The notes beneath the pieces are model-generated. The model ran no database searches. It saw only the letters and a list, made by a program, of their open reading frames with translations, and was not told where the DNA came from. A stretch of 64,000 nucleotides of DNA, taken from Nemertoderma westbladi. Its lineage: Eukaryota > Animalia > Xenacoelomorpha. Below, in pieces: positions 12,162 to 57,002 of this stretch. Every line of letters starts with the position of its first letter. Positions within the stretch are counted from its first letter, which is position 1. The position numbers and the translations under genes are program-made. The DNA is taken from contig JAUCBJ010008281.1 in NCBI GenBank assembly GCA_032718475.1, positions 39,553 through 103,552 on the forward strand, written 5' to 3'.

Positions 12162-12279
12162 GTAAGAAAATACCGTATTGTTCTAAATACAAATGAGATT
12201 AATAAATAATAACATAATAATAACACAATTACTCAAGTTCAAATGTGAAATGTAGATTAAATTGCGAACCAAAGATAAC

Positions 12280-23407: not shown

Positions 23408-24633
23408 TGTAAAAGCTTTTGTGGGATAACTGATACGTTTGCCTTTGCTGGCCAGTTCCCCCCCAGTCGCTAGAATACTCTCAAAGGGATTTATAACTAA
23501 AATAGTGCAAGCTACCAGCTTATTGGCTGATGTGCTGTACGGAGATATCTGGGCTCAGTTTAATCGGCCAACTAGCTTAGAGAGGTTGCCTTAGCCTTGC
23601 TGTTCGTGTCGGCCAATAGAATTTGCGTAGGCGTTGATTTCGACCTATCCCAGCGCTACTGAACTGAATTTCCTATCTCTATGCTCATCCTCTGTGTTGA
23701 ACGGGGCTTCGTGGAATAAGAGTTTTTGGTATACTCGTATAGTGGTAGTAGTCATATGATTTTATATGATTCTGTTGTTGTGTTCCCATTTTCGCCATAA
23801 CACCGGCTTTTTGGGAAGAACTCTAGTAAAACTGCTTAAATTATCGAAAGTATAAACTGTTACCGACTCCGAACCAATCGAATCGATCACTAACGCATCT
23901 TAACATACTCACTTAATTTAACTGCATTAATCATATTGTTTGTACTGTTATTTTACCGTCAGTTATTAATTGTACCTATTTGTTGATGGAAATATTGCTC
24001 TTTGGATAATACGGATAAATCACCCAAAATTCCCAATTTTCTTGATACACTACAGGTTAGAGAGACCGGCTATACATAACAATTTCGATTTATATTAATG
24101 TGGTGTGTATTAAATCTAATGTTATTTAGCAGACCCTACATGAGTCAATTACTGCTCTCTTTATGTGTGATCAAATATACTGACTGTCGGCAGAATAGTG
24201 TGTATGATCGTGATTGGTAACAAAGTATTTCCTAAAGAATACGCTTTATACTTTAATCATAAGCGGTATCGTTGCGTTTTAGTATAAGTCTTAGTTCTGT
24301 TTAAATAGATAGAGCGCCGCGTCCTAAAGGAACTGTTAATATTTCCCGAAAGCCAATAATATCTGTCAGAGATTAATTATTAACGATCTATCGAATAGTA
24401 CAGTAAGTTTACGCTGCAACCTTACACTGCAATAATAAAATTTAAGCATCCGAATTCAGCCTCCCGGGTGTAGATCCATCGGGTGAATGATCGCGCATGG
24501 GCTGCCTTCGTCTAATGTTTTGTGTATTAGCATAAATTGTTGTCGTATGCTAAAGGTGTTTTAATTAACTAAAAGACATATAAATTTTGGCAGGTTAAAC
24601 TGCTAAAGGTCTTCAAAAGCGCGAACAGTAATA
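23408..24633 (+). repeat. LTR copy 2 (3' LTR)
   Basis: Near-identical to LTR copy 1; preceded by the purine-rich GGGAGCGG; ends GCGAACA(GTAATA). Confidence 0.9.
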
Positions 24634-31000: not shown

Positions 31001-34000
31001 GCTTTGAGTATAACGGTGTCCATATTCATGTTACTCTTGTTTACAATCGTTATCATATCCGTCCTAAGCACTGACTCAAACAACATAACCATAATGCTTC
31101 CAATATCATCTTGTTTTCCCCACAAATCAATAACTTTTTGTTGAACATTAGCCTTTAAGTCGCCGGATAGACTGAATCTTGTCACTTTTTTATCTTCATC
31201 TGTTTGCTTCTCTGACTTTTTCATTTCACCAGTCCTACCCGCCATCCAAGTTAATAGGTCAGCCAATCCTCCTGACCCTTCAATTATTATTAGTGGACAA
31301 TTCCGCTTAATCAATCCGCAAATATCATAAAGCGTTGATTTATCACCACCCAATAGAATGGAAAGATTTGGTACAACTCTGTCATTCCCATCAAAATCAT
31401 GGGAGCCTCGTTCTTTCAGGGCCTGCGTTATATTGCTCAAAATACCAAAAGTGTTACCTGTGGAACCCATTGTGCCATCATCCACAAGTAGATAATGAGT
31501 GTGGTTACCTTCTAAGGGAATGTTCACAGACCCTTGAGTGGAATTAATATTTCTGACATCATACACATATTTTGAAACACGTACTTCATCATTGTTGACC
31601 AGCGATGCCTTTCCTGCAATGCTACCAAATTGAGTAACTCCCATCAGTACTAAGTCTGAGTTATCCCTTATATTTTGAGAAATTGTATTGCCAACTTGTG
31701 CGCTAACTCCTGTGTTTAAACCATGAGTAAAAATCCATATACCATCGATTTCTGCCATTTTCAATAATCCCTTTTCAAACAGCTGTCTCATCCTTCCCCT
31801 CATTATTGTGGGCTCTGTGTTGTTACCGAAAATGCCTACAATAATGGCTGGAGGTGGTATTCCCCAAACATCTTCAAATAGTTGCACAACATCGTCACCT
31901 TTGGACTCTGAGTCTAGTCGAATATATGGCAAATGCTTATCATATCGTGCTGAATGATATAATTTCCCGAATGAGTCTGTTGGTTTTGTTATAGTATCAT
32001 AAACTTTAGACCACTGATTTTTATTCTGTTCGCCATTTCTTATGGCATGTTGGGTGTGTTTCTCGAATCCCAATCCGCAGAAGCATAATCGATTAGAACC
32101 ACCGTTTGTATTTTTTATCTGCAATTTAAAATATAAAATCTGATTTGTTATTATTATTATTTTTTAAAACCAAATGGATGCCATCACGACCTCTGCCTGT
32201 GGCGAAATAGTAAAAAATTCTCCTGAATTTCATAAATTATGACTTAAGGTTAGTTATTGCCATTGATTGAATTAATGTTTATGCCTGAAAAATAAACCCC
32301 AACCAAAAACCCAAACTTAACGGACCACTTAGCCAATACATGGACAGCCTACTTGTAACTTACTTGTAACTACTTGTTACCTCCGGTACCTCACCGCTAC
32401 TAAAATTAGGTCGCACCTGAAGTTTCCCGGGATCTAAAGTCCTGAGACAAATAAACCACCCATTTACATGGTCACCATCTCTTATTATATCATTGCGTCT
32501 ATGGCTCTTTTAGTTTTATGTCTAAATATATATACCGCAATTGGAATCAACATGAATTTGTGCATGGCGATTACGAACTGCCATAGCGATGTGCGGTACA
32601 GGTACACTTTCATCTAGTTATCTGTAATCGGCATGGTGCATTGAAGATGCATTTCGAATCAGCTATATCGGCTTTATCAACAAAATTTTGCCGCTACCGC
32701 CACAACTTCCCAAAACCCATGACTTTGGCGAGATGATCCGTATATAATACAAGGACTGTATCATGGGCGGCCTTGCTGATTTTCTCAATGAAGCGGCCAA
32801 AGCACAGATCATGCATTAGCTGGTATGGTTCCCGTCATTAGTTCTAAACCCAAACAACAGTTACCTACATCTATCTATATCCCATGCCATTGCTAATAAT
32901 TTATTGATCCTAATTACATATAATTTCCTGATGATCCAATTGCCTTGGTATGGCATGCCATTTGCCATGTGTGTGAGATTTAACAATTCCATTCTGTACT
33001 ATTAATTATTTTGCAGTATAATAATTTTCGCTCTATACTTATAGCTCAGTTATAGCGTTCAACATTTCCACTAAGTATCCCGCTTGAATGCGGGATGTTT
33101 ACAGTAAGTAACCCCAGGACCGGATTAAGGGGGGGGGGGGGGGGGGGGATTTTTCCCCCGAATTTAACTAAAATTACTGGTAGACTGGTACTGCACAAAT
33201 CATTTGAATCTCTATTATTGGTTGTTTGCTGTAGGCCTATATCCTCCTGTATGTTACTGTAGTTCAAACATCATCTGAAACTGATAATGAACTATTATTC
33301 GATAAAAAAAAGTAAGCGGAAAACACCACTTTTTTTTCACTCATTTTCAATTTAGCGAAATTCAACTATTCTGTCCGAGTGGTTAAGTTTTACAAGAGTT
33401 GGCAGGTTTTTAAAATACTAACGAGTGGAAAACTTAACACACGAGGGCAGAATTATCTGAATTTCGCTAAAGAAAATGAGTGGAAAATAGTGTTTTCCGT
33501 TACGTTTTTATATCGAATATTTTGTTTTATTTGAAAAAAATATCACCAGCGTTATGAATGTTTACGACGTATAATAACACTATATTTTAATTGTGAAGAT
33601 TAATTTAAAATTAATTAATAATTTTAATTTTGAAGATTGTGTGAGCTAACTGTACAGTAAGCTATTCGACAAGTCTCGGTCTACATTATATAATCATTAT
33701 GTACCAGGAACTTACTCAATGATATGAAAGTATGTATCAATTTGATTATATTGTGTAGTAAATAGTTCATTAAATAAAAAAAAATAAAATAAAAAAAAAG
33801 TTAAAAAAAGTTAAAAATTAGTTAAATAAAGTAAAAATTAGTTAAATAAAGTCAAAATTAGTTAAATAAAGTAAAAATTAGTTAAAAAAGTTAAAAATTA
33901 GTTTAAAACAGTAAAAAATTAGTTAAAAAAAGTAAAAAATTAGTTAAATAAAGTAAAAATTAGTTAAAAATTAGTATAAAAAAGTAAAAAATTAGTTAAA

Positions 34001-35744: not shown

Positions 35745-37122
35745 CCGCCAGGGTCCACTCTGCCGTCGATAGAATGAGTACCAGTTGAATTACTGGGAGA
35801 AAAACGTGGGATAGGAGTAGCGCCCAACTCTACCCTCGGGAATCAGATAGGAGTAGCGCCCACCCCTACCCTCGGGAATCAGATAGGAGTAACGCCACCT
35901 CTACCTTCGGGTAGCAGATAGGAGTAACGCCCACCCCTACCCTCGGGTAGCAGATGGGAGTAGCGGCCACCCCTACCTTCGGGTAGCAGATAGGAGTAGC
36001 GCCCACCCCTACCGTCGGGTAGCAGATAGGAGTAGCGCCACCTCTACCTTCGGGTAGCAGATAGGAGTAGCGCCCACCTTTAACCTCGGGTAGCAGATAG
36101 GAGTAGCGCCCACCCCTAACCTCGGGTAGCAGATAGGAGTAGCGCCCACCGCTACCTTCGGGTAGCAGTTAGGAGTAGCGCCCACCCCTACCCTCGGGTA
36201 GCAGATAGGAGTAGCGCCCACCTCTACCTTCGGGTAGCAAATAGGAGTAGCGCCCACCCCTACCCTCGGATAGCAGATAGGAGTAGCGCCCATCCCTACC
36301 CTCGGGTAGCAGATAGAAGTTGCGCCCACCCCTACCCTCGGATAGCAGATAGGAGTAGAGCCCACCCCTACCTTCGGGTAGCAGATAGGAGTAGCGCCCA
36401 CCCCTACCCTCGGGTAGCAGATAGGAGTAGCGCCCACCCCTACCTTCGGGCAGCAGTTAGGAGTAGCGCCCACCCCTACCCTCGGGTAGCAGATAGGTGT
36501 AGCGCCCATCCCTACCCTCGGGTAGCAGATAGGAGTAGCGCCCATCCCTACCCTCGGGTAGCAGATAGGAGTAGCGCCCACCCCTACCTTCGGGTAGCAG
36601 TTAGGAGTAGCGCCCACCCCAACCCTCGGGTAGCAGATAGGAGTAGCGCCCACACCTACCCTCGGGTAGCAGATAGGAGTAGCGCCCATCCCTACCCTCG
36701 GGTAGCAGATAGGAGTAGCGCCCACCCCTACCTTCGGGTAGCAGTTAGGAGTAGCGCCCACCCCAACCCTCGGGTAGCAGATAGGAGTAGCGCCCACCTC
36801 TACCCTCGGATAGCAGATAGGAGTAGCGCCCACACCTACCTTCGGGTAGCAGTTAGGAGTAGCGCCCACCCATACCCTCGGGTAGCAGATAAGAGTAGCG
36901 CCCACCCCTAACCTTAGGTAGCAGATAGGAGTAGCGCCCACCCCTACCCTCGGGTAGCAGATAGGAGTAGCGCCCACCCCTACCCTCGGGTAGCAGATAG
37001 GAGTAGCGCCCACCCCTACCCTCGGATAGCAGATAGGAGTAGCGCCCACCCCTACCTTCGGGTAGCAGCTATCGAAAGAAGGGAAGCCTTCGGGTAGACT
37101 CTGGCTTCGGGGGACTGTTTGC
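35745..37122 (+). mobile_element. SINE remnant (Deu/Nin-like domain plus RTE-like tail) hosting the 36-bp array
   Basis: GTCCACTCTGCC-GTCGATAGAATGAGTACCAGTTG before the array and TAGCAGCTATCGAAAGAAGGGAAGCCTTCGGGT after it resemble invertebrate SINE domain and tail sequences as I recall them. Confidence 0.5.
35811..37068. repeat. 36-bp minisatellite, about 35 copies
   Basis: Unit ATAGGAGTAGCGCCCACCCCTACCCTCGGGTAGCAG. Confidence 0.97.
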
Positions 37123-37198: not shown

Positions 37199-38536
37199 CC
37201 CTTTCACTACTATGGCATAACAGTTAGGTCACACCTACTGTACTATGGCCTAGGTGTTATGCCACGAAGTACTAGGAGCTCTATGGCCACCTAAACATGT
37301 CAGTCTGATAGCTGACACACCCATTACATGTTCAGTACTCTTCCTCATAATAAAATTAAGTGGTAATTTCAAATTTTAATTGGTTGTTTTGGTTTTTGGT
37401 AGGGTTGTAGAGCAGTAAGTATAATGGAATATAAAGGCCTGCTGGTACTGGTAATAAAATGTCTGTCAGTCTGTCTGTCAAAAAATAAGGAAGCATATTA
37501 TGTAATAAAAACATTCGCCATGGGGGTTTTCCAGGTAGCTGATCTCATTTCTGATGTCAGTTTTTACGACTGATCAACTCTAGGCTGTCTGTGTCTGTAT
37601 GTATGTCTGTTTGTCTGTCAGTCAAAAAATACGGAATCATATTATGTAATGAAAACATTCGCCATGGGGGTTTTCCAGGTCTCTGATTTCATTTCTGATG
37701 TCAGTTTTTACGACTGACCAACTCTAGGCTGTCTGTGTCTATATGTATGTCTGTATATCTGTTTGTCTGTCTGCCAGTCTGTCTGTCAAAAAACAAGTGG
37801 GGATTTTCCAGGTCTCTGATTTCATTTCTGATGTCAGTTTTCACGCCTGGCTCGACTCACGACACACTGTGTGACAGACAAACAGACAGACACAGACAGC
37901 ATAGAGTTGGTCAGTCGTAAAAACTAACATCAGAAATGAAATCAACGACCGGGAAAACCCCCATAGCGAATGTTTTTATTACATAATATGCTTCCTTATT
38001 TTTTGACAGACAGACTGAAAGACAAACAGACATACATACAGACACAGACAGCCTAGAGTTGGTCAGTCGTAAAAACTGACATCAGAAATGAAATCAGAGA
38101 CCTAGAAAACCCCCATAGCGAATGTTTTTATTACATAATATGCTTCCTTATTTTTTGACAAACAGACTGACAGACAAACATACATACATACAGACACAGT
38201 CAGCCTAGAGTTGGTCAGTCGTAAAAAAGGACATCAGAAATGAAATCAGAGACCTAGAAAACCCCATAGCGAATGTTTTTATTACATAATATGCTACCTT
38301 ATTTTTTGACAGACAGACTGACAGACAAACAGACATACATACAGACACAGACAGCCTAGAGTTGGTCAGTCGTAAAAACTGACATCAGAAATGAAATCAC
38401 CAACCCTTAAAACCCCCAAAGCGAGAATGTTAGTAGATTTAATTCTTTCTTAAGTCTTGACAGACAAACTGACAGAAAGACCGACAGACATCAGTACGTG
38501 GGGAACACATACAATCTTGAATCAGTAGTGAAAGGG
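37199..38536. mobile_element. piggyBac-type non-autonomous element (TTAA TSD) with internal inverted ~152-bp arrays
   Basis: TTAA|CCCTTTCACTACT ... AGTAGTGAAAGGG|TTAA, a 13-bp perfect TIR. Internal units run forward at 37460-37850 and reversed at 37875-38460. Confidence 0.85.
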
Positions 38537-39039: not shown

Positions 39040-40690
39040 CGTGGCAGTGGTTCGTCGGTCCTTACAGATATTGAAATCCAAAAGTACAAAACCACAACCA
39101 AGACAAGAAAAGGAATCAGTTAAGGTACAATCCGTCTTCCACACAACGACAGATTCGAAATCAGACATTATCAATAAGCCTTTCTCGTGTGGTTTGTTTC
39201 TCAAATTCAGTAACAAACTTCAGCAAGCATTGTGTCTAATTTTATTGTATACAATTTTACTTTATCATATTACACTGACTAATGTTAATCCACTTTATTA
39301 TCTTCTATGAAATACCCACTGTTTTATAAGTTATTCAATTTGTATGTGTCCTCTTGTATACTGAGTCATAAATTTGTATTACAGTACATCTATATCTAAA
39401 TCATATTAAATCTATTTACTTTGATATTTACTTTTTTAGGCCAGGTGCTACTTCCAACATTATTAGCATTATTGGTGCTAAAAGTGTACTCTTTCCGTAT
39501 CACCTTTTAACTATTCAACCATGAACTTACTATTTTGTGCCTACTTTCTCAAATTTTCTGTATTAATTTATTTTTTTATTTGATGGTGTGTGTGTTCGAG
39601 TGTAAGTAGGTATTTAATCATAATTAGTTCATTGCTATTGTGCTGCCCCTATGTTTGTACGTTGTACTATTACTGTAACTAGGTTCAATCTAATATGTAC
39701 GAAATACACATACTAGGCTACATAATAGGCTGGAACATTAGTTAATACGGAATACACCTTGACTGCAGATACTTTTATGGTGATTTATTTTATTGGCTTT
39801 GTACAGCGTTCTTGCAGTTTCTATTTCAATGCACGAGCCAAAGTCGTACAGAAAAATGTCTTGGCATAGAAAAACTGAAGTTCTTAAAGTGCAATAATTA
39901 TGTGTGAGTAGGGAGGGGGTTGGTAGTTGGGTAGGGGGAGGGAGAAGGGGATGTGAGGTGTTCTGGTGACGAATTATAATTAACTCTAATAGATTAATAA
40001 ATACCTGAATATAATTTATATTTACTCGTTTTATACCAAGTCTATAAAGAAGGCACCCTAGTTCCAACTACTGTATTAGTGGGTGCTGTTGTAGTTAACT
40101 CAGAAGTGTTTCTAAACAGAAGCATTACGTTGTTCCAACTTAACGGATGTCAGCGTATCGTTCAAGTGCCTGGTGTTATTCTTAGAATCATTCTATACGG
40201 AGTACCTCTTTTAGTTCAGGTAATGAAGTCAAGTGAAGGGATCGAATTATAAAAATGTAGAATTCGACGTGGTGGTATGGCAGATCTGCTTCGATTGGTA
40301 AATGATTCGCTATGCCGTTACAGATCATAAAAGGTTATAGGTAGTTTCAGTTCGTTTTATATTTAGTCTGTACCACTAACAAACCTTGCTGATATTACAA
40401 TAAAATTGTTACGTGTTATATGTACTTTAGTTTATTGTTTTGGTTAGAATAACGTGCCATTGTTACCGCTCATATCTCAAGATTGGAACGATATACCCAG
40501 ATGGGATTTGGGTTCAGTCCCCGCACTACTTTCGCATGGATTTCACATTTGTATGCTGTTCGGAGGATGAATAAGAAAGACCCTGCCATAATCATGTTCT
40601 GGTTGGATGGCTAATCAATTTCCTAAGGTTGAATTAATTTATTGTATCTTACACCCCAGAACTGAGATGAAACTGTTGAAAATGATTTTT

Positions 40691-43600
40691 AAAACAATCT
40701 TCAAAGGGCTGCTGATGGGTTACTTTTCTTGTTATTCGTGTTGTTTTTGTTGTAACACAATATTCAAAGGGCTGCTGATGGGTTTATTTTCTTGTTATTC
40801 TTGTTGTTTTTGTTGTAAAACAATCTCCAAAGGGCTGCTGATGGGTTGCTTTTCTTGTTATTCGTGTTGTTTTTGTTGTAACACAATATTCAAAGGGCGT
40901 TATTCGTGTTGTTTTTGTTGTAACACAATATTCAAAGGGCTGCTGATGGGTTACTTTTCTTGTTATTCGTGTTGTTTTTGTTGTATAACAATCTCCAAAG
41001 GGCTGCTGATGGGTTGCTTTTCTTGTTATTCGTGTTGTTTTTGTTGTATAACAATCTCCAAAGGGCTGCTGATGGGTTGCTTTTCTTGTTATTCGTGTTG
41101 TTTTTGTTGTAATACAATATTCAAAGGGCTGCTGATGGGTTGCTTTTCTTGTTATTCGTGTTGTTTTTGTTGTAACACAATATTCAAAGGGCTGCTGATG
41201 GGTTGCTTTTCTTGTTATTCGTGTTGTTTTTGTTGTATAACAATCTCCAAAGGGCTGCTGATGGGTTACTTTTCTTGTTATTCGTGTTGTTTTTGTTGTA
41301 ACACAATATTCAAAGGGCTGCTGATGGGTTTATTTTCTTGTTATTCTTGTTGTTTTTGTTGTAAAACAATCTCCAAAGGGCTGCTGATGGGTTGCTTTTC
41401 TTGTTATTCGTGTTGTTTTTGTTGTAACACAATATTCAAAGGGCTGCTGATGGGTTTATTTTCTTGTTATTCTTGTTGTTTTTGTTGTAAAACAATCTCC
41501 AAAGGGCTGCTGATGGGTTGCTTTTCTTGTTATTCGTGTTGTTTTTGTTGTAACACAATATTCAAAGGGCTGCTGATGGGTTGCTTTTCTTGTTATTCGT
41601 GTTGTTTTTGTTGTAACACAATATTCAAAGGGCTGCTGATGGGTTGCTTTTCTTGTTATTCGTGTTGTTTTTGTTGTAATACAATATTCAAAGGGCTGCT
41701 GATGGGTTGCTTTTCTTGTTATTCGTGTTGTTTTTGTTGTAACACAATATTCAAAGGGCTGCTGATGGGTTGCTTTTCTTGTTATTCGTGTTGTTTTTGT
41801 TGTATAACAATCTCCAAAGGGCTGCTGATGGGTTACTTTTCTTGTTATTCGTGTTGTTTTTGTTGTAACACAATATTCAAAGGGCTGCTGATGGGTTTAT
41901 TTTCTTGTTATTCTTGTTGTTTTTGTTGTAAAACAATCTCCAAAGGGCTGCTGATGGGTTGCTTTTCTTGTTATTCGTGTTGTTTTTGTTGTAACACAAT
42001 ATTCAAAGGGCTGCTGATGGGTTGCTTTTCTTGTTATTCGTGTTGTTTTTGTTGTAACACAATATTCAAAGGGCTGCTGATGGGTTGCTTTTCTTGTTAT
42101 TCGTGTTGTTTTTGTTGTATAACAATCTCCAAAGGGCTGCTGATGGGTTACTTTTCTTGTTATTCGTGTTGTTTTTGTTGTAACACAATATTCAAAGGGC
42201 TGCTGATGGGTTTATTTTCTTGTTATTCTTGTTGTTTTTGTTGTAAAACAATCTCCAAAGGGCTGCTGATGGGTTGCTTTTCTTGTTATTCGTGTTGTTT
42301 TTGTTGTAACACAATATTCAAAGGGCTGCTGATGGGTTGCTTTTCTTGTTATTCGTGTTGTTTTTGTTGTAGCACAATATTCAAAGGGCTGCTGATGGGT
42401 TGCTTTTCTTGTTATTCGTGTTGTTTTTGTTGTAACACAATATTCAAAGGGCTGCTGATGGGTTGCTTTCTTGTTATTCGTGTTGTTTTTGTTGTAACAC
42501 AACCTTCAAAGGGCTGCTGATGGGTTGCTTTTTTTGTTATTCGTGTTGTTTTTGTTGTAGCACAATATTCAAAGGGCTGCTGATGGGTTGCTTTTCTTGT
42601 TATTCGTGTTGTTTTTGTTGTAACACAATATTCAAAGGGCTGCTGATGGGTTGCTTTTCTTGTTATTCGTGTTGTTTTTGTTGTAACACAACCTTCAAAG
42701 GGCTGCTGATGGGTTGCTTTTCTTGTTATTCGTGTTGTTTTTGTTGTAACACAATATTCAAAGGGCTGCTGATGGGTTGCTTTCTTGTTATTCGTGTTGT
42801 TTTTGTTGTAAAACAATCTTCAAAGGGCTGCTGATGGGTTGCTTTTCTTGTTATTCGTGTTGTTTTTGTTGTAACACAATATTCAAAGGGCTGCTGATGG
42901 GTTGCTTTTCTTGTTATTCGTGTTGTTTTTGTTGTAACACAATATTCAAAGGGCTGCTGATGGGTTGCTTTCTTGTTATTCGTGTTGTTTTTGTTGTAAC
43001 ACAACCTTCAAAGGGCTGCTGATGGGTTGCTTTTTTTGTTATTCGTGTTGTTTTTGTTGTAGCACAATATTCAAAGGGCTGCTGATGGGTTGCTTTTCTT
43101 GTTATTCGTGTTGTTTTTGTTGTAACACAATATTCAAAGGGCTGCTGATGGGTTGCTTTCTTGTTATTCGTGTTGTTTTTGTTGTAAAACAATCTTCAAA
43201 GGGCTGCTGATGGGTTGCTTTTCTTGTTATTCGTGTTGTTTTTGTTGTAACACAATATTCAAAGGGCTGCTGATGGGTTGCTTTTCTTGTTATTCGTGTT
43301 GTTTTTGTTGTAACACAATATTCAAAGGGCTGCTGATGGGTTGCTTTTCTTGTTATTCGTGTTGTTTTTGTTGTAACACAACCTTCAAAGGGCTGCTGAT
43401 GGGTTGCTTTTCTTGTTATTCGTGTTGTTTTTGTTGTAACACAATATTCAAAGGGCTGCTGATGGGTTGCTTTTCTTGTTATTCGTGTTGTTTTTGTTGT
43501 AACACAACCTTCAAAGGGCTGCTGATGGGTTGCTTTTCTTGTTATTCGTGTTGTTTTTGTTGTAACACAACCTTCAAAGGGCTGCTGATGGGTTGCTTTT

Positions 43601-44441
43601 CTTGTTATTCGTGTTGTTTTTGTTGTAACACAACCTTCAAAGGGCTGCTGATGGGTTGCTTTTCTTGTTATTCGTGTTGTTTTTGTTGTAACACAACCTT
43701 CAAAGGGCTGCTGATGGGTTGCTTTTCTTGTTATTCGTGTTGTTTTTGTTGTAACACAATATTCAAAGGGCTGCTGATGGGTTGCTTTTCTTGTTATTCG
43801 TGTTGTTTTTGTTGTAACACAACCTTCAAAGGGCTGCTGATGGGTTGCTTTCTTGTTATTCGTGTTGTTTTTGTTGTAAAACAATATTCAAAGGGCTGCT
43901 GATGGGTTGCTTTCTTGTTATTCGTGTTGTTTTTGTTGTAAAACAATCTTCAAAGGGCTGCTGATGGGTTGCTTTTCTTGTTATTCGTGTTGTTTTTGTT
44001 GTAACACAATATTCAAAGGGCTGCTGATGGGTTGCTTTTCTTGTTATTCGTGTTGTTTTTGTTGTAACACAACCTTCAAAGGGCTGCTGATGGGTTGCTT
44101 TCTTGTTATTCGTGTTGTTTTTGTTGTAAAACAATCTTCAAAGGGCTGCTGATGGGTTGCTTTTCTTGTTATTCGTGTTGTTTTTGTTGTAACACAATAT
44201 TCAAGGGCTGCTGATGGGTTTCTTTTCTTGTTATTCGTGTTGTTTTTGTTGTAACACAACCTTCAAAGGGCTGCTGATGGGTTGCTTTTCTTGTTATTCG
44301 TGTTGTTTTTGTTGTAACACAACCTTCAAAGGGCTGCTGATGGGTTGCTTTTCTTGTTATTCATGTTGTTTTTGTTGTAAAACAATCTCCAAAGGGCTGC
44401 TGATGATGGGTTACTTTCTTGTTATTCGTGTTGTTTTTGTT
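40691..44441. repeat. 63-bp satellite array, about 59 copies
   Basis: Unit AACACAATATTCAAAGGGCTGCTGATGGGTTGCTTTTCTTGTTATTCGTGTTGTTTTTGTTGT, with 62-bp variants. Confidence 0.97.
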
Positions 44442-44639
44442 GTTATTGTTTTCTTGCCAATCTTGCCAACAATGCCTCTTTGCCTCTCAGCTGAAGTGTA
44501 TGCCGTGGTGTCAACCATGTCAACCAACCGGATATTCCAGAATTTTGTAGGATTTAATTCTTGAAAATGAACTATTTTCGGCTGACACAGTCACACAGGC
44601 CCAGGGTTTATAAGAATCAATGGGGTGGACATTATGCTG

Positions 44640-45050: not shown

Positions 45051-45740
45051 TTTCGCGAGTAACTTCCATAATTTTTTTTCATTCTGAGACCCTAGATTTT
45101 TATATTTGTTGTGATTGGTCTTTTTTGTAACTAATGCGAGCTTGTCTCATAGAAATCATCATTCAATGATAAAAATAAATTGAACTGATATGGTACAAAT
45201 TGCACACCTGCACTTTAACTCCAGCTATATTATAAAATAATCTTATGTAAAAACATATAACTGCAGTAGTCAGCTGATAAGAAAGGAACATAATGACTGT
45301 AAAATGAAATTAAATATAAAGAATGTAATGTTAAAGTGGCGTCACTATGGGCTCAGATTATGGGTTAAGACGTATGGACGTACATACACATCAGGTTTTT
45401 TTGATTATTGATAGTAACAATGTGTTAGTAAGCTGTATTTAGTGGTGCGAATTAAATATTTATCCACCAATATAATTCACCAAATTACCTTAAATAAAAT
45501 ATGAACTTCTTAATAAGATAGGGTGAGGGGAGTGGGGGAGTGGTTTGGTGCAATCAAAATTTAAACCTCCATGGGAAAAATCAACGCGAGAGAAATAACA
45601 GTCGTTACAAATAAACATCAATCTGTAATAAACAGTGCCATTAAATTTCGCTTATTGCATTGATTAGAATAACATGCCACTATTATACACCTGGTCAGTT
45701 CATATATTAAGCCCTAGCCCTATATATATAATGTAATAAA

Positions 45741-46314
45741 TACTACTTCTACTACTACTAGAATCGGCATGCTGCATTGCAGCTGCATTTTTAAGAATGC
45801 TGTGCCGGCTTGTCAACAAAATTGCACCGCCACAACTCCCTATCACCCATGACATTTGCTAGATCATCCGCATCTTCAAGGCCAGTGTCCTTTAAGATGC
45901 GTCTCAAGAAAGTCATGGGCTGTCCACCATGCTTATTCACTCCATGAGGCTGCCAAAGTACAAGATTATGCACTGGCTGGTCCTCACGGCGAAAGCAATG
46001 TCCTGCAAAGCGGAGGCGATTTTGTTCTAGTGTCAAGCTTGGGGGAACCAATGAGACACCTCCAATGTTATATAGTGTCTGGTTGGAGATGTGTGCATTG
46101 TGTACTTGACACAATGAACCCGGCGTAGCATTCTTGTGAATGTGCCATCCGGAGATTTGGTGTCCTCAGCAGTTAGAGCACAGCATGGACTCCCGTAGAG
46201 GAGTACTGGAACTACTGCTGCTCTAAATAATCGGACCTTAAGTTTCCGATTAATTCTCGGTGACTTCCAAATCCTGGAAAGCCTATTCAAGGCTGCCCAT
46301 GCCTTTCCCTTACG
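45741..46314 (-). mobile_element. RTE LINE 3' fragment
   Basis: Near-identical reverse complement of ~54889-55448 (KVRLFRAAVVPVLLYG, RLRFAGHCFR), one frameshift, (TAG)n tail. Confidence 0.9.
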
Positions 46315-46530
46315 AGAGATTAAGAAATAAAAGATAAGTTATTTTCGGTAAAATAAACTTATCATTCGAGGTAAAGACCCCTAGATCCCTTCCTATAATA
46401 AATGTATAATAACAAACACCTCGAAAAATACAGCTTGCTAACACATTGTTACTATCAATAATAAAAAAAATCAGGGGCTAATAAAATAGCAGCTGGCTTT
46501 GAAATTAATACTCCATATCTCAAGAACCTG

Positions 46531-46586
46531 TGGCCTAGTGGTTGTAGTCTCGGCTTCCACCTCGAGGTCCCAGGTTCGAATCCGAC
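46531..46586 (+). promoter_or_regulatory. tRNA-like internal Pol III promoter (A and B boxes)
   Basis: A-box TGGCCTAGTGG (46531-46541), anticodon-like loop CTTCCAC, B-box GGTTCGAATCC (46573-46583); no acceptor stem. Confidence 0.7.
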
Positions 46587-46629
46587 ACCACGCTGATGAG
46601 ACCCAGTAAGGTCGAAACGCGTACGTGGT
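46587..46629 (+). ncRNA. Minimal type I hammerhead ribozyme
   Basis: ACCACG-CTGATGA-GACC cagtaa GGTC-GAAA-CGCG-TA-CGTGGT: 6-bp stem I, 4-bp stem II, complete core, palindromic short stem III (ACGCGT), predicted cleavage after GUA at 46623. Confidence 0.88.
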
Positions 46630-46639
46630 TTGGAGAGAT

Positions 46640-47190
46640 ATGAGATATGGGGGGGTGTATCAGGTAAAATTTTCAAATTGTTGTTTCTTTATTTAATCTA
46701 GTGCAGAATTTAATGAGGATTACAAATCTGAAAACCGCTTAGTGAGACCTCTTTCAGTTCTCGAGTTATCACTGTTTTTCCGTATGACGGTCTGTCCGTC
46801 AAATTGTAAGAAAGACAGAAGACCGACAGACAGACAGATAGACTAGATTCTACCAAAAATTAAAACTGACGTCGGAAATGAAATCAGCGACTCCGAAAAC
46901 CCCCGTAACGGACACTTTAGCTCGTTCGTGTGCATCGTTCACGCCGGAAATAATTAACCAACCAGAACACAGACAGCCAATTTTGGCGGGATGGTTTAAA
47001 CTTTGAAGGGCATTTTCTCGGAGTGACATTTTTCATTTTCAAATTACTACTTCTCCGTCATTTTTTAACCAATTTTCTTCGTTTATGGCTCATTCAAACG
47101 AGCTTTGGAAGCTCTTTAAAAGTTATCTTATGGAATTTTGATAAATATTACCATTTTTTCTAATTAGCCAATTTTAATTAAAAATATGAT
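46640..47190. mobile_element. DNA-transposon/Helentron(DINE-1)-like remnant
   Basis: (GACA)n microsatellite plus AAAACTGACGTCGGAAATGAAATCAGCGACTCCGAAAACCCC, related to the units at 37875-38460. Confidence 0.45.
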
Positions 47191-47191
47191 A

Positions 47192-48180
47192 GTAACAGAA
47201 GTCGCCCACATGCTCAAGCATACCATCCTTTGAGCTTATGCTCATCCGATCAGAGACTTGCTGAGGACTTCAAAAGTTAACTGTCAAAATTTTGGTCTTT
47301 CTGGAGTTAATAAAAAGACCAACACTAGAAGCAGCATGTTCTAATGAGCTGAGCAGCCGTTGGGCTCCCTCAAGTGATTCTGAGAGTACTCCTAAGTCAT
47401 CAGCAAAGTCTAGATCAGTTAGGTACTTGGCATGATTTCCTCGACTTCTGGAGCCAGTAGGTGGCGTTATCATCACCCCATCATCATAATGATGATCTAA
47501 GGACATGCGTAGAACATATTCAACCACAATTATGAACAAGAATGGTGCAAGTGTGTCTCCCTGGAAGACGCCCCATAACACGTCAAATGGTTCTGTGTCA
47601 CCGTCAACAGTAGACACAAATGTTGTCGAACCATCGTATACTGATCTGATTGCTGCAATAATATCATCAGGAATCCCATATAATGAAAGTATGCTGAACA
47701 TACGTGAGCGAGAGACTGAATCAATAGCCTGGAAGAAGTCAACAAAGATAACAGCCAGATGCCTGTCTTTCTTTTTTGATAACTCTTCAATTATCCTTCT
47801 AAGTACCAAAATGGGCTCCATGGTCCCACGACCTTTACAGAACCCATTCTGATTTCCACGGAGCAGTCTCTCAATGGGACCGCTAATGCGATTTAATAGA
47901 ATTCTATTGTATAGCTTTGCAGCAATCGAGATCAATGAGATTTCCCGAGAAGAACCATAGAGTGTTAGGTCGCCCTTCTTGGGAACTGGCACCAACTTAT
48001 TTGTTTTCATTTCTTGTGGAACTCTTGTTGTTCGGTACATGTCTACTATGATGGGAAAGATGAGCTTTAAACACTCGGGTATTTTAAAGACCTCAGGGGA
48101 ACACCTACTACCATCTACTCCACTGGCAAGATTGGTCTTAATGCTCTTTGCAGCAGCCTTGAATTCTGCAAAGGAGATAT
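47192..48180 (-). mobile_element. RTE LINE reverse transcriptase fragment
   Basis: LVPVPKKGDLT, QNGFCKGRGT, FVDFFQAIDSV, GVFQGDTLAPFLF, LDFADDL; overlaps the 54348-55448 copy with high identity. Confidence 0.92.
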
Positions 48181-49960
48181 CGCTTTATTCTTATTCGCTT
48201 CGTTAATGAATTATATTATTCGCTTCTGCATAGGAGATATTTACGATTATGATAATGTAAAATAGCGGAATCCGAAGACAGAGGGAATCCGAAATGTTAC
48301 ATGTGTAATGATGTGTAATAATGTAATAATTGCCTAGTTTCTAAAGAGATCACTATTTTAAATTAAATTCTCGACATTGCTCAAAAAGTTGCCGGCCAAG
48401 TTGCTAGTAAAATTTCCACTGCGAATAAATTAAGTTGCTCCATAAAAGTTGCTGGTTGCCGACAAAGTTACTCAAAAAGTTGCCACGTTTAAACCGGCCT
48501 TAATAGCTGAAATGCAGTTATCAGAATGTACCCAGACTGATTGTTCGTTTGTTTTTTTGGTTATTGTTGATAGTCAAGCATAAAACATAATTAAAACTGT
48601 CATGTAACCCTAAGTAATAATCTAATAAATTTAGTGGAATTTCGGACATTATTGCCATATCGAAGGAAATTTTCAGTAATATCTCAATTTTTGAATAAAA
48701 TAACGCGCTATACTGCCACACCCTTTCCTTACTTAAGTTAGGATGGATCCTCGGGGAGTTAACGAAACCCTCGGCTTCGCCTCGTGTTTGTTAACTGCCC
48801 TCGGATAAATACTCGTAAAATAACTAAATAACTGGATGATAAATAATGGTATAGGTTGTATTGGACAGTACGATACTGTTAATGAATCTACTGCATTGTA
48901 TTGTTGGTAAGGGGGCCTTTTCCTTTGCATGGAACGGGTTCTGTTCTAAAGTTCTTCTTGTTATTGGCTATTGTGTGATTTTAATATCATTCACTAACAA
49001 GGGCTTGGCTTATTATACTGCATGTTTCATTCAACTTTTAATAACTTGAATACTCTAGTGATTCTTCCTGTCAGGATATCGTAAAGCAGGTTACAGAAGG
49101 TATAACACGAATAGTATTATATAATTATTGATAAAGTTATGCAGTAAATAATACGCCCTAGCCTAGTATAGTGGCTCCCTTCTTTAATTACCTATTATTA
49201 ATTATATTAATATTTTAATTATATTAAAAATATCATGAATCTTTACAAACATAACAACCCATACAATATATCGATTTTTTAGCAGTCTGCATGATGGTTT
49301 AGTTAGAATTAGTTTGAACCAACGTATTTTTTTTAGCTGTCAAATATTTTAATATTTGTTTTTTCTGAACTAACAAGTGCATCTGGTTGTTATGAAAAGA
49401 GAAGAAATTGGGGTGGGTATTTATTGTCGACTAAAAGTCGTTTTAAAAGCACTGTGTATATTACCGCTATTTTGAGCGAATGACACATATCAATCCCAAA
49501 TATCATCAGTTTTATTAATGGTGAGTAGTAGGCCTACTTGGTGAGGCCTATGGTTCGTTCAGACAGTACACATAAATTATATGTATATGTTAAAAGTTCC
49601 CAGCAGAGGACTGTTCGCTGTTAAAGTCCCCCACAGTGGTCTTTTCTTTTGATATGTTCGTATTTATTTTCAAATAAAACAAAATTTAATCAAGCTATAA
49701 CATACCATGAAGCTAATTATTCTAATTATGTATTTTAATTACCCTATCTAATTACGGCTATACACCAATACGACTTATCTAATTATTCTATACTGTATGA
49801 TGGGTTGTTTTTGTACACAACGACATATATCGTAACAGTATAAGTTACGTGTTATAATTTAGTTCACGATGTTTGGTATTTGAACCCAACTTATTTATAG
49901 ATAAGTCACTTTAATTAATTAGGATTGGTGATTGATGTCCCTTTTAAGCTTATAAGTAAG

Positions 49961-52474: not shown

Positions 52475-55400
52475 TTAGTAAAGGAAGTAAAATACCATAG
52501 CAACCACTAGTATGGTGACCGTAGCGACAGGGGAAGTTGCGCCGTTGCAAAGATCTTCATTGTCGCAGCAGAGACCGACGACAGACTCCTGCAGGGCGGC
52601 ACAGGCAACCTCTTGGCAGGCCCTTTTCACAATACCAACACTGATTGAGCTCAGCCCGGTACTCGATTCATATTTCTAAAAAAATACAAGACAATAAATA
52701 TATGGCACCTATTCTCCGAAGTTGTTTGGAAGGACTTGCATCTATTCCTAAGGTCGACTTCCGTCGACTTTCTTTTTCTTTAACGTCGACTTCAGTGCAA
52801 ATTCATATATTATTAACAAAAAATTAAATTTATTGTAAGCTGATCCAGCAGCATCAATATTATAATCTGCTCTAATCAAACAAAATTGTATATGTACCAG
52901 TACTACACTACCCAATAAAACAACTTTTTATGTCTCCAAATATTGCAGCTGCTGTAAAATCTTCAGTAAAGATAACTATTACCATTAAACCTAAAAGATA
53001 AAGAAACTGTGTACTTTCTGCGATTTCTGGACCTAATGGGGTAGACGACTCGGAAATTTTTTTTCCATTTTTTGTTGGTTTCATGTGAAAGAGCATGTGA
53101 AGAAACCCCAGAGAGCAATTTTACTTAAAAAAAAATAGCGATATTATAGCGATTTTAAAACGCAAAATTTGCAACATCGAAAAATCACGCCGATTCAGAA
53201 AACTGCACGAGTGACGTCAGCCATAACAGAGCAACAGTTGTCAAGCGCTGTTGATTGCGCTAATATAAAGTATAATATTGCAGTATCTAAAATAAAACAA
53301 ATAATAAATGTAGCTAAGTATTTATTTGGATGTGTGTTAAAAATCGATTATATAGGATAGCGGTATGGAGGCAAATTATTCATATCAAGTTAATTATTCT
53401 AGAATAATATTTATTTCGCCCATACCTGTACCGTAGAGCTGTAGCTAAAAATAAATATAGCTAGCTAAATACTGCCAGGCGTTTCATTAATCTATTTTAA
53501 TTGTTTTACAGCGAACAATGCGGGGTAGATTAGCACTAGATGGAAATTATTTAGATTTTTTGTCAGTTCACTGTAAAGTGTTACTGGTACTAGTGTTGCC
53601 CGTGTCACCATTATTCTTCCTTTCATAATAGCTGTTTTTGGTTTGACATCCAAAAATATCAAAATGCCAAAAAAATACCAAAACATAATGTTTTGGGCTA
53701 TAGATTTATGTTCTTGACATATTTTGGCGAGTAGGCTACATGTGAAAAAAAAATGTTTTAAAGAAAATGAAAACAAATGTTTGTGGTAGCTAGTGTTTTC
53801 AATGGAATGTACTGTTTTAAGTAGTTTAAGTGTTAGCTAGTATTTTTTTAAAAGCTAATTAAAATTAAATTAAATTAATTAAATGACAATACAACTCATT
53901 TCAAGGCAATTCAAGTCATTTTAAAAATGGGGGGACGTACGGAACTCTAGCCAAAATTAAAAAATTTACTGTATTGAGGTCATTATATTTAGAAATTAAT
54001 GATATGTTTAGAATACGTATACTGTATAATATTATTTAGCAGACAGCGGGTAATATTTTCTTGCAGCACATACTCACTCAGTCAACCAGAACTAATCGAT
54101 GAGCAGGCTTATGCAACAAATGCTGCAGATGAGTGCTGAAGCGTGGACTTCAATATCAAAGTGTTGTCTCTTCGAAAGAGAAGATCCAGCTGCCAAGATC
54201 CGAGTTGAGTCAACATCTGAGAAGGCCTTGCAGCTTGGGGGCAAATTTCGAAAAACTGTTCAATAATGGCTGAGTGATCCAAGATGACTTCTTTATCGCA
54301 CATCATCACTTCAAGGTACTCTCTGATATCCTTATAGTATTGGTGATACGTATGTTCAGCATACTTTCATTATATGGGATCCCTGATGAAATTATTGCAG
54401 CAATCAGATCAGTATACGATGGTTCGACAACATTTGTGTCTACTGTTGATGGTGACACAGAACCATTTGAAGTGTTATGGGGCGTCCTCCAAGGAGACAC
54501 ACTTGCACCATTCTTGTTCATTATTGTGGTTGACTATGTTCTACGCATGTCCTTAGATCATTATAATGATGATGGGGTGATGATAACTCCACCTACTGGC
54601 TCCAGAAGTCGAGGAAATCCTGCCAAGTACCTAACTGATGGCTTAGGAGTACTCTCAGAATCATTAGAGGGAGCCCAACGGCTCCTCAGATCATTAGAAC
54701 ATGCTGCTTCTAGTGTTGGTCTTTTTATTAACTCCAGAAAGAGCAAAATTTTGACAGTTAACTTTGAAAGTTCTCAGCAAGTCTCTGATCGGATGAACAT
54801 AAGCTCAAAGGATGGTATGCTTGAGCATGTGGACGACTTCTGTTACCTGGGATCATGGATCCGGAAGTCAGGTGAGGACCTTCGAATACGTAAGGGAAAG
54901 GCATGGGCAGCCTTGAATATGCTTTCCAGGATTTGGAAGTCACCGAGAATTAATCGGAAACTTAAGGTCCGATTATTTAGAGCAGCAGTAGTTCCAGTAC
55001 TCCTCTATGGGAGTCCATGCTGGGCTCTAACTGCTGAGGACACCCAATCTCTGGATGGCACATTCACAAGAATGCTACGCCGGGTTCATTGTGTCAAGTA
55101 CAATGCACACATCTCCAACCAGACACTATATAACATTGGAGGTGTCTCATTGGTTCCCCCAAGCTTGACACTAGAACAAAATCGCCTCCGCTTTGCAGGA
55201 CATTGCTTTCGCCGTGAGGACCAGCCAGTGCATAATCTTGTACTTTGGCAGCCTCATGGAGTGAATAAGCATGGTGGACAGCCCATGACTTTCTTGAGAC
55301 GCATCTTAAAGGACACTGGCCTTGAAGATGCGGATGATCTAGCAAATGTCATGGGTGATAGGGAGTTGTGGCGGCGCAATTTTGTCGACAAGCCGGCACA

Positions 55401-57002
55401 GCATTCTTAAAAATGCAGCTACAATGCAGCATGCCGATACTAGTAGTATGTTGCATTATTGTCAGATACCACCATGAATTAAAGAAAGGCGGTTCCCGTT
55501 GACTATCGACGATTGATATCGTATTTTACCAATGCTGCTCCAATTTTATTCCAATACAACATATGGGTTAATATTAACAGCGACTTGAATCGATTTTTAG
55601 CGCAATATACAATATCAATATATATAGGCCTACTGTAATACAATAGCATCATGTTATTACTTGCTTATAGTGCAGGAAACGGATAACGCTAAAATTTGAA
55701 TTTCTTCTGACCGAGTTAGTGAAATTAATTAATATTAGTTGTAAACGGTTTATAGTTAGATGCTCCATAAATTACAATTAATCAAATAGAGTAGTCCCCC
55801 AACAAAAATTTCACATGCATTTTTTTTGCGTTTTAAGTTTGAAAAAAAATTACATAAATACAGTACTTGAAGCATTACATTTAGTATACAGTATACACAG
55901 TATACGTTATAGAATAGTTATTGTGATTCCAATTATTGTACTCTTTAACTCCTGATTCCTACCTTACTCAATGTTAATTAATTTAATTAGCGCAACATAC
56001 AGATCTGTTTTAAGAATTAATTTAACAAACTACAATCGTCATATATAAAATTTCAATATAATTTTGACCGAAAAGTAAAAACCTGATATTCTTCAACACT
56101 GAGTTCTATAAGACAGATAGGGGGGGGGGGGGGGGGGAACTGGACGCAATAAAAACGTATCCCTCTCCAGGGGAAATTCGACGCAAATAACAGCTGATTA
56201 CTCTCAAAAATAAAACTGTAACCTGTTCTAAAGTGTTTAGTTTATTGTTTTCGTTAAAATAACGTGCCACTGTAACCTGCTCCTTTCCCTAAATTGAGAA
56301 TTTAACATTGAGGCGGGATATTAATTCGCCAAGGCGGGTTTTGCGTCGCGTTTCCCCCCCTGTCTCTATAGAGAATATAAATTCTGCTTTGGAGTACGCC
56401 TTGCGGACAGTAAAGTTGCAATAACTATTAATAGATTTTGCTCAAATTACATGCAAACGTTTTCCACTACTACGCTCTTTCAACACATTCATTACAAATT
56501 TATTTCAAAAATGCCACCAAAAAATATATTTTCACATTTTCATACATGAGATAAAAATTACGTCTTTTTATCCCGATTATTCGGTATATTCGGCAGAAAA
56601 ACTAATAAATTAATAATAAAAGTCTTTTTCTTTTATTCCATCATTATTTTTTTCTAATTAAATAATAATAGAAGATAATTTTACATGCAAAAATGTTAAT
56701 TTTAATCAAAATTATATTCGCAAAATGATATTGGTGAATAAATAATAACAGCCTAACTTATGTGTGAAGCCGTGCGGCATTCAATATTATTTATAATACG
56801 AACTAACTTGTACTTCAATTAACACTTCACAGTTTTCATAAACTAAACTTACAGTGCAAGAAACACATCCGCCTTGCTCTGCTGCTCCAGTAATATCAAC
56901 GCTTATTGTACCACTAGTACTGTCTGATGTAGAACATTTAATGAGGGCGCCGCATAAATCAACTGCTACAACAATGAGTAACAAAGCTATTATCACCTTC
57001 AT
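52475..57002 (-). CDS. Ly6/uPAR (three-finger, quiver-like) GPI-anchored protein, 2 exons (56853-57002, 52475-52675), 116 aa
   Basis: Exon1: signal peptide MKVIIALLLIVVAVDLCGA, then LIKC...GGCVSCT|gtaagt. Exon2: ttttag|KYESS...KRACQEVAC...LCCDNEDLCNGA plus hydrophobic tail VATVTILVVAMVFYFLY*. Phase 0 on both sides; diagnostic CC-x4-LCN. Confidence 0.85.
54348..55448 (+). mobile_element. 5'-truncated RTE LINE, antisense in the Ly6-like intron
   Basis: GVLQGDTLAPFLF, FCYLGS, RLRFAGHCFR, short 3' UTR and TAGTAG tail; the FADD motif is deleted. Confidence 0.92.

What the first reader, a model, noticed from the sequence alone, without database searches (positions are those of the whole stretch)
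46511..46652. tRNA-like Pol III head fused directly to a hammerhead ribozyme: candidate self-cleaving ~100-nt retroelement
Seen: A-box and B-box followed within 4 nt by a complete hammerhead (stem I ACCACG/CGTGGT, CUGAUGA, stem II GACC/GGTC, GAAA, palindromic ACGCGT stem III, GUA site). The cassette is bracketed by the inverted repeat CCATATCTCA/TGAGATATGG and lies between RTE fragments. Known: minimal type I hammerheads with palindromic stem III occur in Penelope-like elements and non-LTR retrozymes and can cleave as dimers; Schistosoma SM-alpha pairs a Pol III promoter with a hammerhead. Inference: a very compact Pol III-driven ribozyme SINE/retrozyme, here a monomer that would need a trans partner or tandem copy to cleave, embedded in a DNA-element remnant.
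Basis: partly seen in the sequence, partly recalled or inferred. Interest (0 to 1): 0.8.

Follow-up and report, generated by a model that had tools for sequence, protein, structure and literature searches.

The report
Truncated copy of tRNA-headed hammerhead retrozyme
The flagged stretch is the tail end of a cut-short copy of an abundant 411-base non-coding repeat of what is likely an animal; each unit joins tRNA-type promoter boxes to a hammerhead motif predicted to cut its own RNA in pairs, a design already known from blood flukes.

Summary
The motifs are real: A box 46531-46541, B box 46573-46583, complete type I hammerhead 46587-46629 (0 hits in 300 shuffles). The element is not about 100 nt and not inside a DNA transposon. 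Public runs show an abundant, young family: this locus holds 323 nt (46326-46648) of a unit that closes on itself at 411 nt. The 'inverted repeat' is part of the unit's own RNA closing stem. The copy has no target duplication, is joined to another repeat, and the whole 877-bp insert replaces 42 bp of a LINE. The hammerhead is the canonical animal (retrozyme, Sm-alpha) type, not the Penelope minimal type; helix III likely needs a dimer. Structure is under selection: a metagenome relative keeps helix I by 4 double changes, another conserves B box plus ribozyme (79/80) over the head, and two of this copy's three main differences from the family restore one base pair. Best reading: a dead-end copy of a likely Pol III-driven non-LTR retrozyme, probably mobilised by a Penelope-type enzyme; transcription, cleavage and circles are untested. 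The scan reported a 411/412-nt family of this layout on other pieces of this genome, and the layout in other genomes. New member of a known kind.

The parts
46326..46648 (+). Partial copy (323 of about 411-413 nt) of the retrozyme-like unit; crosses the predicted cleavage site
   Evidence: High-depth block and loose ends at 46326 and 46648 in runs X1, X3, X4; X5 record 26 closes the unit with 90 nt absent from the window
46524..46583 (+). tRNA-like head: predicted Pol III start near 46524, A box 46531-46541, B box 46573-46583; folds as one hairpin, not a cloverleaf
   Evidence: no ARAGORN or Rfam tRNA hit; start position inferred from the usual 7 nt ahead of the A box (own knowledge)
46587..46629 (+). 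Type I hammerhead motif, canonical animal type; predicted cut after 46623; helix I extended to 46581/46634, overlapping the last 3 nt of the B box
46499..46522 (+).
   Evidence: 46514-46521 pairs with 46635-46642 (two pairs checked, p 0.998); 46499-46510 is complementary to 46646-46648 plus the first 9 letters that follow 46648 in other copies
46635..46648 (+). Right arm of the closing stem, two tandem GAGATAT; cut off here by the junction
   Evidence: (loose ends at 46641 and 46648)
46431..46496 (+). Hairpin with a compensatory pair: U-A at 46439/46488 here, C-G in the family majority
   Evidence: table 3 (98.8% C and 99.9% G by depth in X1); pair probability 0.92
46342..46345 (+). Only run of four T on the sense strand of the 323 nt; possible weak Pol III terminator inside a hairpin
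   Evidence: hairpin
46315..46325 (.). 11-nt filler between the LINE and the copy
46649..47191 (.). Neighbouring repeat of another, older family with GACA microsatellite; same insert; class not determined
   Evidence: median depth 9- to 34-fold below the unit, many variant sites, relatives at 37459-38424
45753..46314 (-). 3' part of the interrupted LINE
   Evidence: 98% identical to the uninterrupted copy at 54889-55448
47192..48184 (-). Upstream (reverse transcriptase) part of the interrupted LINE; 42 bp lost at the insert
   Evidence: resumes at 54846 of the uninterrupted copy; RVT_1 E 1e-22

Best explanation
The stretch is the 3' end of a 323-nt truncated copy of an abundant, young, 411-nt non-coding repeat with tRNA-type promoter boxes and a hammerhead motif, which likely spreads as a non-LTR retrozyme copied by a Penelope-type reverse transcriptase. 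Shown: motifs, unit length, head-to-tail closure, abundance, youth, structure-preserving changes, no target duplication, 42-bp loss in the LINE. Inferred cycle: (1) Pol III starts near 46524 in one unit of a tandem array and reads through the single T4 into the next units; (2) two hammerheads pair through the ACGCGU palindrome, form helix III together and cut after GUA, releasing a 411-nt monomer whose promoter lies at its 3' end; (3) a host ligase such as RtcB closes it; (4) a borrowed reverse transcriptase primes internally and copies across the cleavage junction, giving tandem, inverted or truncated inserts. This locus would be one such truncated product: it runs 298 nt up to the cut and 25 nt past it, so its template was a circle, a multimer or uncut RNA, not a cut linear monomer. 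Alone, it could make only a ~146-nt RNA ending at the T4 at 46670 and cannot regenerate a unit: a dead end.
For: Closed unit: X5 record 26 (441 nt, minus strand) reads 46403 to 46326, 90 other nt, then 46648 to 46374, ends overlapping by 30 nt, so 411 nt; joints from 46641/46649 back to 46329 in X1 and X3; strand convention checked on X7 records. Abundance: summed depth 1.6-5.2e5 across the unit in X3 against 4-21 for its long contigs (not a copy number). Youth: 1 variant row at 1% or more in X3 over 46490-46680. Covariation: L009 shares 28 of 30 core letters and 22 of 30 head letters, and all 6 helix I pairs hold, 4 by change on both sides. X7 relative: 1 difference in 80 over 46567-46646 against at least 11 in 66 over 46501-46566, Fisher p 0.0012. 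Compensatory pair 46439/46488; chance that 2 of 3 sites are partners 0.005. Unit folds better than 100 of 100 shuffles, z -3.6. One-pair helix III costs 5.2 kcal/mol in a monomer while the palindrome duplex gives -7.5. Opposite-strand joints and an inverted loose end in other copies fit the inverted structures of Penelope-like inserts (PMC8557442); internal priming without homology is shown for a Penelope-like RT (PMC11167929); size, GC 39% and tandem form fit non-LTR retrozymes (PMC7229834); retrozymes linked to PLEs (bioRxiv 10.64898/2026.07.22.740005).
Against: No transcript, cut or circle is shown; a closed unitig arises equally from tandem DNA, and X5 is only guessed to be RNA and is labelled another organism. 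A T4 lies about 230 nt after the predicted start in an array, so Pol III must read through it; T-run depletion on the sense strand is not significant (P 0.72). The head is no cloverleaf and 11 of 11 listed X7 changes fall in it, one of them a U-to-A change inside the A box in both X7 contigs (46539) and two more in one contig each; these changes both make and break pairs of the head hairpin. No Penelope-like element with matching sequence was found: no genome is held. No target duplication, a 42-bp deletion, filler and a second repeat in the same insert also fit DNA break repair. The opposite-strand joints are single low-depth contigs. The compensatory pair is one event, and 79 variant rows were not shown.
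Confidence: 0.6

Rival explanations
1. Same retrozyme-like RNA, but copied by a LINE reverse transcriptase (SINE-like partnership) rather than a Penelope-type one; this insert would be a template-switch chimera of the neighbour repeat and the retrozyme.
Against: No poly(A) or LINE-like tail and no target duplication at this locus; no similarity between the 323 nt and the LINE in the window; inverted joints fit Penelope-type inserts better, though L1-type twin priming also inverts (own knowledge).
Confidence: 0.17
2. A satellite-type tandem repeat that amplifies and disperses at the DNA level; this piece was captured during repair of a break in the LINE, and the ribozyme only processes satellite transcripts.
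For: 42-bp deletion, 11-nt filler, no target duplication, arbitrary-looking ends; head-to-tail closure; homogeneity fits concerted evolution.
Against: Structure-preserving changes outside the ribozyme and a whole-unit stable fold point to selection on the full RNA; same design in a distant metagenome relative; diverged single pieces sit in long unique contigs (X3 records 2, 4, 7).
Confidence: 0.13
3. The 323 nt are part of the pseudo-LTR of an autonomous Penelope-like element that captured a tRNA promoter.
For: Another abundant 600-nt contig shares 46329-46453 at about 90% and then diverges (X4 record 17); PLE repeats carry hammerheads.
Against: The unit closes at 411 nt with no coding part; hammerhead lacks the PLE minimal features; no PLE ORF beside it.
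Confidence: 0.06
4. One reading: a self-contained ~100-nt Pol III ribozyme SINE embedded in a DNA transposon remnant with terminal inverted repeats.
For: A 10-bp perfect inverted repeat brackets head and hammerhead; start-to-cut distance is 100 nt.
Against: Depth runs unbroken from 46326 to 46648 with no step at 46511-46524; in other copies the two G of the right arm are absent and the stem continues as part of the unit; no target duplication.
Confidence: 0.03

Closest known systems
Schistosoma Sm-alpha / Sj-alpha SINE-like hammerhead retroposons (seen as passages in PMC6765202, and PMC2770079; the original paper PMC108972 was not held)
   Same: tRNA-derived Pol III promoter followed by a hammerhead; tandem repeats; high copy number; after cleavage the promoter ends up at the 3' end of the monomer, so single copies are dead ends.
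   Different: Sm-alpha is described as tRNA-Gln derived and many copies still score as tRNA genes; this head is no cloverleaf and its parent tRNA was not identified. Sequence homology to Sm-alpha was not tested. Transcription and cleavage are reported there, not here.
Metazoan non-LTR retrozymes (Cervera and de la Pena 2020, PMC7229834; Li, Clavereau and Pollet, bioRxiv 10.64898/2026.07.22.740005)
   Same: 150-450 bp tandem units, GC under 50%, no ORF, canonical type I hammerhead, strongly self-paired RNA; weak helix III with palindromic loop as in axolotl HHR_Amex1, which cleaves 6% as monomer and much better as dimer.
   Different: Neither main text names an internal promoter ('polymerase III' 0 hits in both); most invertebrate retrozyme hammerheads cleave as monomers; circles not shown here; no target duplication at this locus.
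Minimal hammerheads of Penelope-like elements (Cervera and de la Pena 2014, PMC4209133)
   Same: Type I topology, palindromic helix III, dimer dependence.
   Different: Those have an unpaired nucleotide before a 7-8 bp helix II and a 4-5 bp helix I; this one has none, 4 bp and 6 bp.

Membership tests
Type I hammerhead ribozyme | Core CUGANGA, GAAA, UH triplet with helices I and II | tested here: met
   helix pair probabilities 0.76-1.0
Type I hammerhead ribozyme | Rfam gathering score | tested here: not met
   HH9 26.6 bits against 52, E 0.0003-0.005
Type I hammerhead ribozyme | Covariation in helices | tested here: met
   one relative only: 11 of 11 pairs hold, 4 double and 1 single change
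Type I hammerhead ribozyme | Self-cleavage at the predicted site | not testable with these tools
   needs in vitro assay or raw RNA reads
Canonical metazoan hammerhead | Helix I 6 bp, helix II 4 bp, helix III 1-2 bp with palindromic loop | tested here: met
   definition; anatomy
Canonical metazoan hammerhead | Conserved loop 1-loop 2 tertiary contacts | tested here: inconclusive
   loop 2 is a C...A hexaloop as in the Rfam models, but loop 1 is reduced to a single bulge
PLE minimal hammerhead | Unpaired nucleotide before a 7-8 bp helix II | tested here: not met
   contrast L005/L008 which have the extra nucleotide
Non-LTR retrozyme | 150-450 bp non-coding unit, GC under 50% | tested here: met
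   411 nt; 125 of 323 G+C; no ORF of 120 aa or more over the unit
Non-LTR retrozyme | Head-to-tail repeats in many copies | tested here: met
   at family level; this locus is a single partial copy
Non-LTR retrozyme | Target duplication longer than 4 bp when present | tested here: inconclusive
   none at this locus; the feature is optional in the definition
Non-LTR retrozyme | Expressed as linear and circular monomer RNA | not testable with these tools
   only contigs were available
Sm-alpha-like retroposon | tRNA-type A and B boxes directly ahead of the hammerhead | tested here: met
Sm-alpha-like retroposon | Sequence homology to Sm-alpha / tRNA-Gln origin | not tested
   no Sm-alpha sequence was on hand
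Sm-alpha-like retroposon | Transcription by Pol III | not testable with these tools
   needs inhibitor, ChIP or box-mutant assays
Classical tRNA SINE | Head at the 5' end of the insert, simple-repeat or poly(A) tail, target duplication | tested here: not met
   head lies 198 nt inside the copy; no tail; no duplication
Non-autonomous DNA transposon (MITE) | Terminal inverted repeats at the element's ends with target duplication | tested here: not met
   left arm is internal to the unit

The most novel reading that the evidence does not exclude
tRNA-headed retrozymes are a widespread, so far unnamed class: the same tRNA-like head fused to an almost invariant dimer-dependent hammerhead recurs in unrelated eukaryotes (here and L009), the B box is built into the ribozyme's extended helix I, and the whole circle is selected as RNA. 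This would name Pol III as the missing promoter of animal non-LTR retrozymes, fold Sm-alpha into that class, and make them SINE-like partners of Penelope-type enzymes.
Probability: 0.3. Interest if true: 0.6.

Novelty: new member of a known kind. Interest (0 to 1): 0.33.

Why it matters
The two retrozyme papers searched here do not say what transcribes animal retrozymes, and the mobilising enzyme is inferred. A young, homogeneous family with its own A and B boxes makes both testable: mutate the boxes, assay monomer against dimer, map fresh insert ends. The design itself is known from schistosomes, and this locus is a broken copy, so its own weight is modest; what it adds is covariation evidence and a distant relative with the same layout.

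Tried and rejected
No genome is held, so no genome-wide copy count, array map or PLE search was possible. No RNA holder listed; X5 is a guess and was not used as evidence of expression. X8 and X9 (other organisms): nothing laid, no proof of absence. tRNA cloverleaf: none; L009 head gives only a weak truncated tRNA hit, 15.7 bits, E 4.8. T-run strand asymmetry as sign of selection against Pol III terminators: not significant, P 0.72 and 0.18. B box + hammerhead pattern: 11 loci in metagenome contigs, 11 in prokaryote genomes, 0 in viral contigs; 3 of these 22 fold as hammerheads (L005, L008, L009), all metagenomic, 0 of 11 prokaryotic; L005/L008 were set aside as Penelope-type without A box. 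Exact core in viral contigs: 0. Target duplication: none; the longest shared words (4 and 5 nt) are chance-sized and not at the junctions. A hammerhead in the neighbour 46649-47191: no CTGANGA...GAAA within 40 nt on either strand; its first 142 nt fold no better than shuffles; scrambled-order cores were not searched separately. Head-hairpin covariation in X7: mixed, 3 pairs gained or strengthened, 2 kept as wobble in at least one contig, and several broken, so not used as support. Host lineage: TRPM and LINE searches place it among animals at best. Earlier-findings look-ups by sequence, nearness and relatives were empty. Paper searches for a named class of tRNA-headed retrozymes outside schistosomes gave nothing specific (open-licence library only). 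PMC108972 and PMC5785218 were not held.

Full report
Observation. The window shows, on the + strand, an A box at 46531-46541, a B box at 46573-46583 and, 3 nt later, a complete type I hammerhead: helix I 46587-46592/46624-46629, CUGAUGA, a 4-bp helix II with a six-base loop, GAAA, the palindrome ACGCGU and a GUA triplet with the cut after 46623. A descriptor search finds this hammerhead and this box pair once each in the window; 300 shuffles, both strands, gave 0 hammerheads, 1 box pair and 0 combinations. Rfam HH9 matches at E 0.0049 and 0.00031 but under its gathering score. The head is not a tRNA by ARAGORN or Rfam and folds as a single hairpin. The A/B-box and hammerhead consensus motifs used in the scripts are recalled, not taken from a call.

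Context. The window looks like animal DNA rich in repeats: a TRPM channel ORF, a Pao/BEL-type gag (DUF1759; class label recalled), LINE fragments and satellites. No whole genome is held. Comparison with an uninterrupted LINE copy at 54348-55448 shows that 46315-47191 (877 bp) is an insert that replaces 42 bp of the LINE, with no target duplication. The LINE has RVT_1 and DUF6451; its clade was not tested.

True extent of the element. Seven of ten listed runs hold part of the stretch; none is on record as RNA. Laying four runs on 46250-47000 shows one block of very high depth from 46326 to 46648, with loose ends at both limits, and a median depth 9- to 34-fold lower over the right neighbour. 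Joints lead from 46641 and 46649 back to 46329 in X1 and X3. X5 record 26 (441 nt, minus strand) reads 46403 to 46326, then 90 nt not in the window, then 46648 to 46374; its ends overlap by 30 nt, which is what a closed path gives in a 31-mer graph (inference), so the unit is 411 nt. I checked the coordinate convention on X7 records 9-11, whose loose ends fit it. The window therefore holds 323 nt of a 411-413-nt unit. A closed contig does not tell tandem DNA from circular RNA. Summed depth in X3 is 1.6-5.2e5 over the unit against 4-21 for its long contigs; the tool warns that this is no copy number, so I infer only that copies are very many. In X3 one site in 46490-46680 varies at 1% or more (46546, 2.7%): the family is young and this copy equals the majority over head and ribozyme.

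The inverted repeat. Its left arm lies inside the high-depth block. In other copies 46648 is followed by letters whose first nine are complementary to 46499-46507, and 46514-46521 pairs with 46635-46642. The arms thus form a long RNA stem that closes head and ribozyme; the perfect 10-bp match at this locus owes its last two G to the neighbouring repeat. It is not a transposon end.

Selection on structure. First, a pattern scan of metagenome contigs gave 11 loci and the same scan of prokaryote genomes 11, which shows the background; 3 of the 22 fold as hammerheads. L009 begins inside a tRNA-like head (22 of 30 letters as here), has the B box, and a hammerhead with 28 of 30 core letters identical; all 11 pairs hold, 4 of the 6 in helix I by change on both sides. 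The rest of L009 is unrelated, and its host is unknown. Second, a relative in run X7 differs at 1 of 80 sites over 46567-46646 but at 11 or more of 66 over 46501-46566 (p 0.0012; 3 low-depth contigs, regions chosen after seeing the data). Against a strict promoter reading, some of those changes fall in the A box, and they both make and break pairs of the head hairpin. Third, of the three majority-level differences shown between this copy and the family (46373, 46439, 46488; 79 of 119 variant rows were not shown), two are partners: U-A here, C-G in the family, pair probability 0.92, chance about 0.005. The 323 nt fold better than all 100 shuffles.

Kind of hammerhead. PMC4209133 (passages and section 5 read) defines the canonical animal type as helix I 6 bp, helix II 4 bp, helix III 1-2 bp with a palindromic loop, active as a dimer, and the Penelope minimal type as having an extra nucleotide before a 7-8 bp helix II. 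This one is canonical. A one-pair helix III costs 5.2 kcal/mol in the monomer, while two palindromes pair at -7.5 kcal/mol. The axolotl ribozyme with the same weak helix III cleaves 6% as monomer and far better as dimer (PMC7229834).

Mechanism. Shown: anatomy, unit, abundance, conservation, junctions. Inferred: Pol III transcription from about 46524 through an array, which needs read-through of the only T4 seen in the unit (46342-46345; 30 of the 90 missing letters are unseen; T-run depletion is not significant); dimer cleavage to 411-nt monomers; ligation by a host ligase as shown in vitro for other retrozymes; reverse transcription by a borrowed enzyme. The copy spans the cut site (298 nt before, 25 nt after), so a cut linear monomer cannot be its template. 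A Penelope-type enzyme is favoured by inverted joints in other copies (single contigs), the lack of a duplication, the inverted structures and tails described for PLEs (PMC8557442, passages and section 15), internal priming without homology (PMC11167929, passages) and the retrozyme-PLE link (bioRxiv 10.64898/2026.07.22.740005, abstract, passages, section 14). No partner element was found. A LINE partner or capture during DNA repair remain open. At this locus Pol III would stop at the T4 at 46670 after about 146 nt, so the copy is a dead end, as described for single Sm-alpha copies (PMC6765202, passages).

Comparison and novelty. It works like Sm-alpha (tRNA-derived head plus hammerhead, over 10,000 copies; PMC2770079 passages) and meets the sequence-level features of non-LTR retrozymes (PMC7229834: abstract, Results parts 1-2 of 3, Discussion, term search). 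Homology to Sm-alpha was not tested. PMC10085705 and PMC10886601 were seen as passages and did not bear on the element. No supplements were read; those of PMC7229834 show invertebrate retrozyme sequences that may include tRNA-like heads. Seven searches of the open-licence library found no paper naming tRNA-headed retrozymes as a class. The unit length here was measured.

Verdict. A real, well-supported hammerhead behind tRNA-type boxes, in a truncated copy of an abundant retrozyme-like family: new member of a known kind, interest 0.33.

Noticed in passing
window 45396-45440 (minus) and 46426-46470: A 45-nt module of the unit recurs, 96% identical and inverted, in a different repeat 1 kb away; X4 depth peaks over 46432-46457, and other families continue from it into different sequence. 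Possible shared signal for the mobilising enzyme.
   Followed up: partly
X4 record 17 on window 46329-46453: A 600-nt contig of depth 512 shares 125 nt of the unit at about 90% and then diverges for 444 nt: a sister family or partner element.
   Followed up: no
L009 1-90: Metagenome contig with a tRNA-like head fused to a near-identical hammerhead core and compensatory helix I; degenerate CCCTAA-like repeats at about 830-870 suggest a eukaryote.
   Followed up: partly
L005 and L008, about 1500-1570: Penelope-type minimal hammerheads (extra nucleotide before a 6-bp helix II) in AT-rich metagenome contigs, preceded by a B-box-like word without A box.
   Followed up: partly
window 46649-47191, 37459-38424: Abundant repeat family with GACA microsatellite, also present as tandem and inverted 144-152-bp units; class undetermined. 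46710-46733 looks like a decayed hammerhead core with a 5-bp hairpin, unsupported by folding.
   Followed up: partly
window 28030-32163 (minus): Intronless 1377-codon TRPM-type channel ORF; animal TRPM genes usually have many introns (own knowledge), so possibly a retrogene or an intron-poor lineage.
   Followed up: partly
window 1-12166: About 51 tandem 236-bp units, 87% alike, that look like an EGF-type exon plus a short intron: a gene grown by serial exon duplication.
   Followed up: no
window 16103-20260 and 12280-14637 / 59697-62061 / 23408-24637: Long gag-like ORF with DUF1759 and a 1.2-2.4-kb repeat in three near-identical copies (96-98%), likely an LTR element and its repeats.
   Followed up: no
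window 2786 (minus): A second B-box match with a tRNA-like upstream stretch inside the 236-bp array, without hammerhead core; possible SINE insert.
   Followed up: no
window 35810-37068 and 40690-44443: 36-bp and 63-bp minisatellites, 35 and 60 copies, with long open frames that are probably by-products of the repeat.
   Followed up: no
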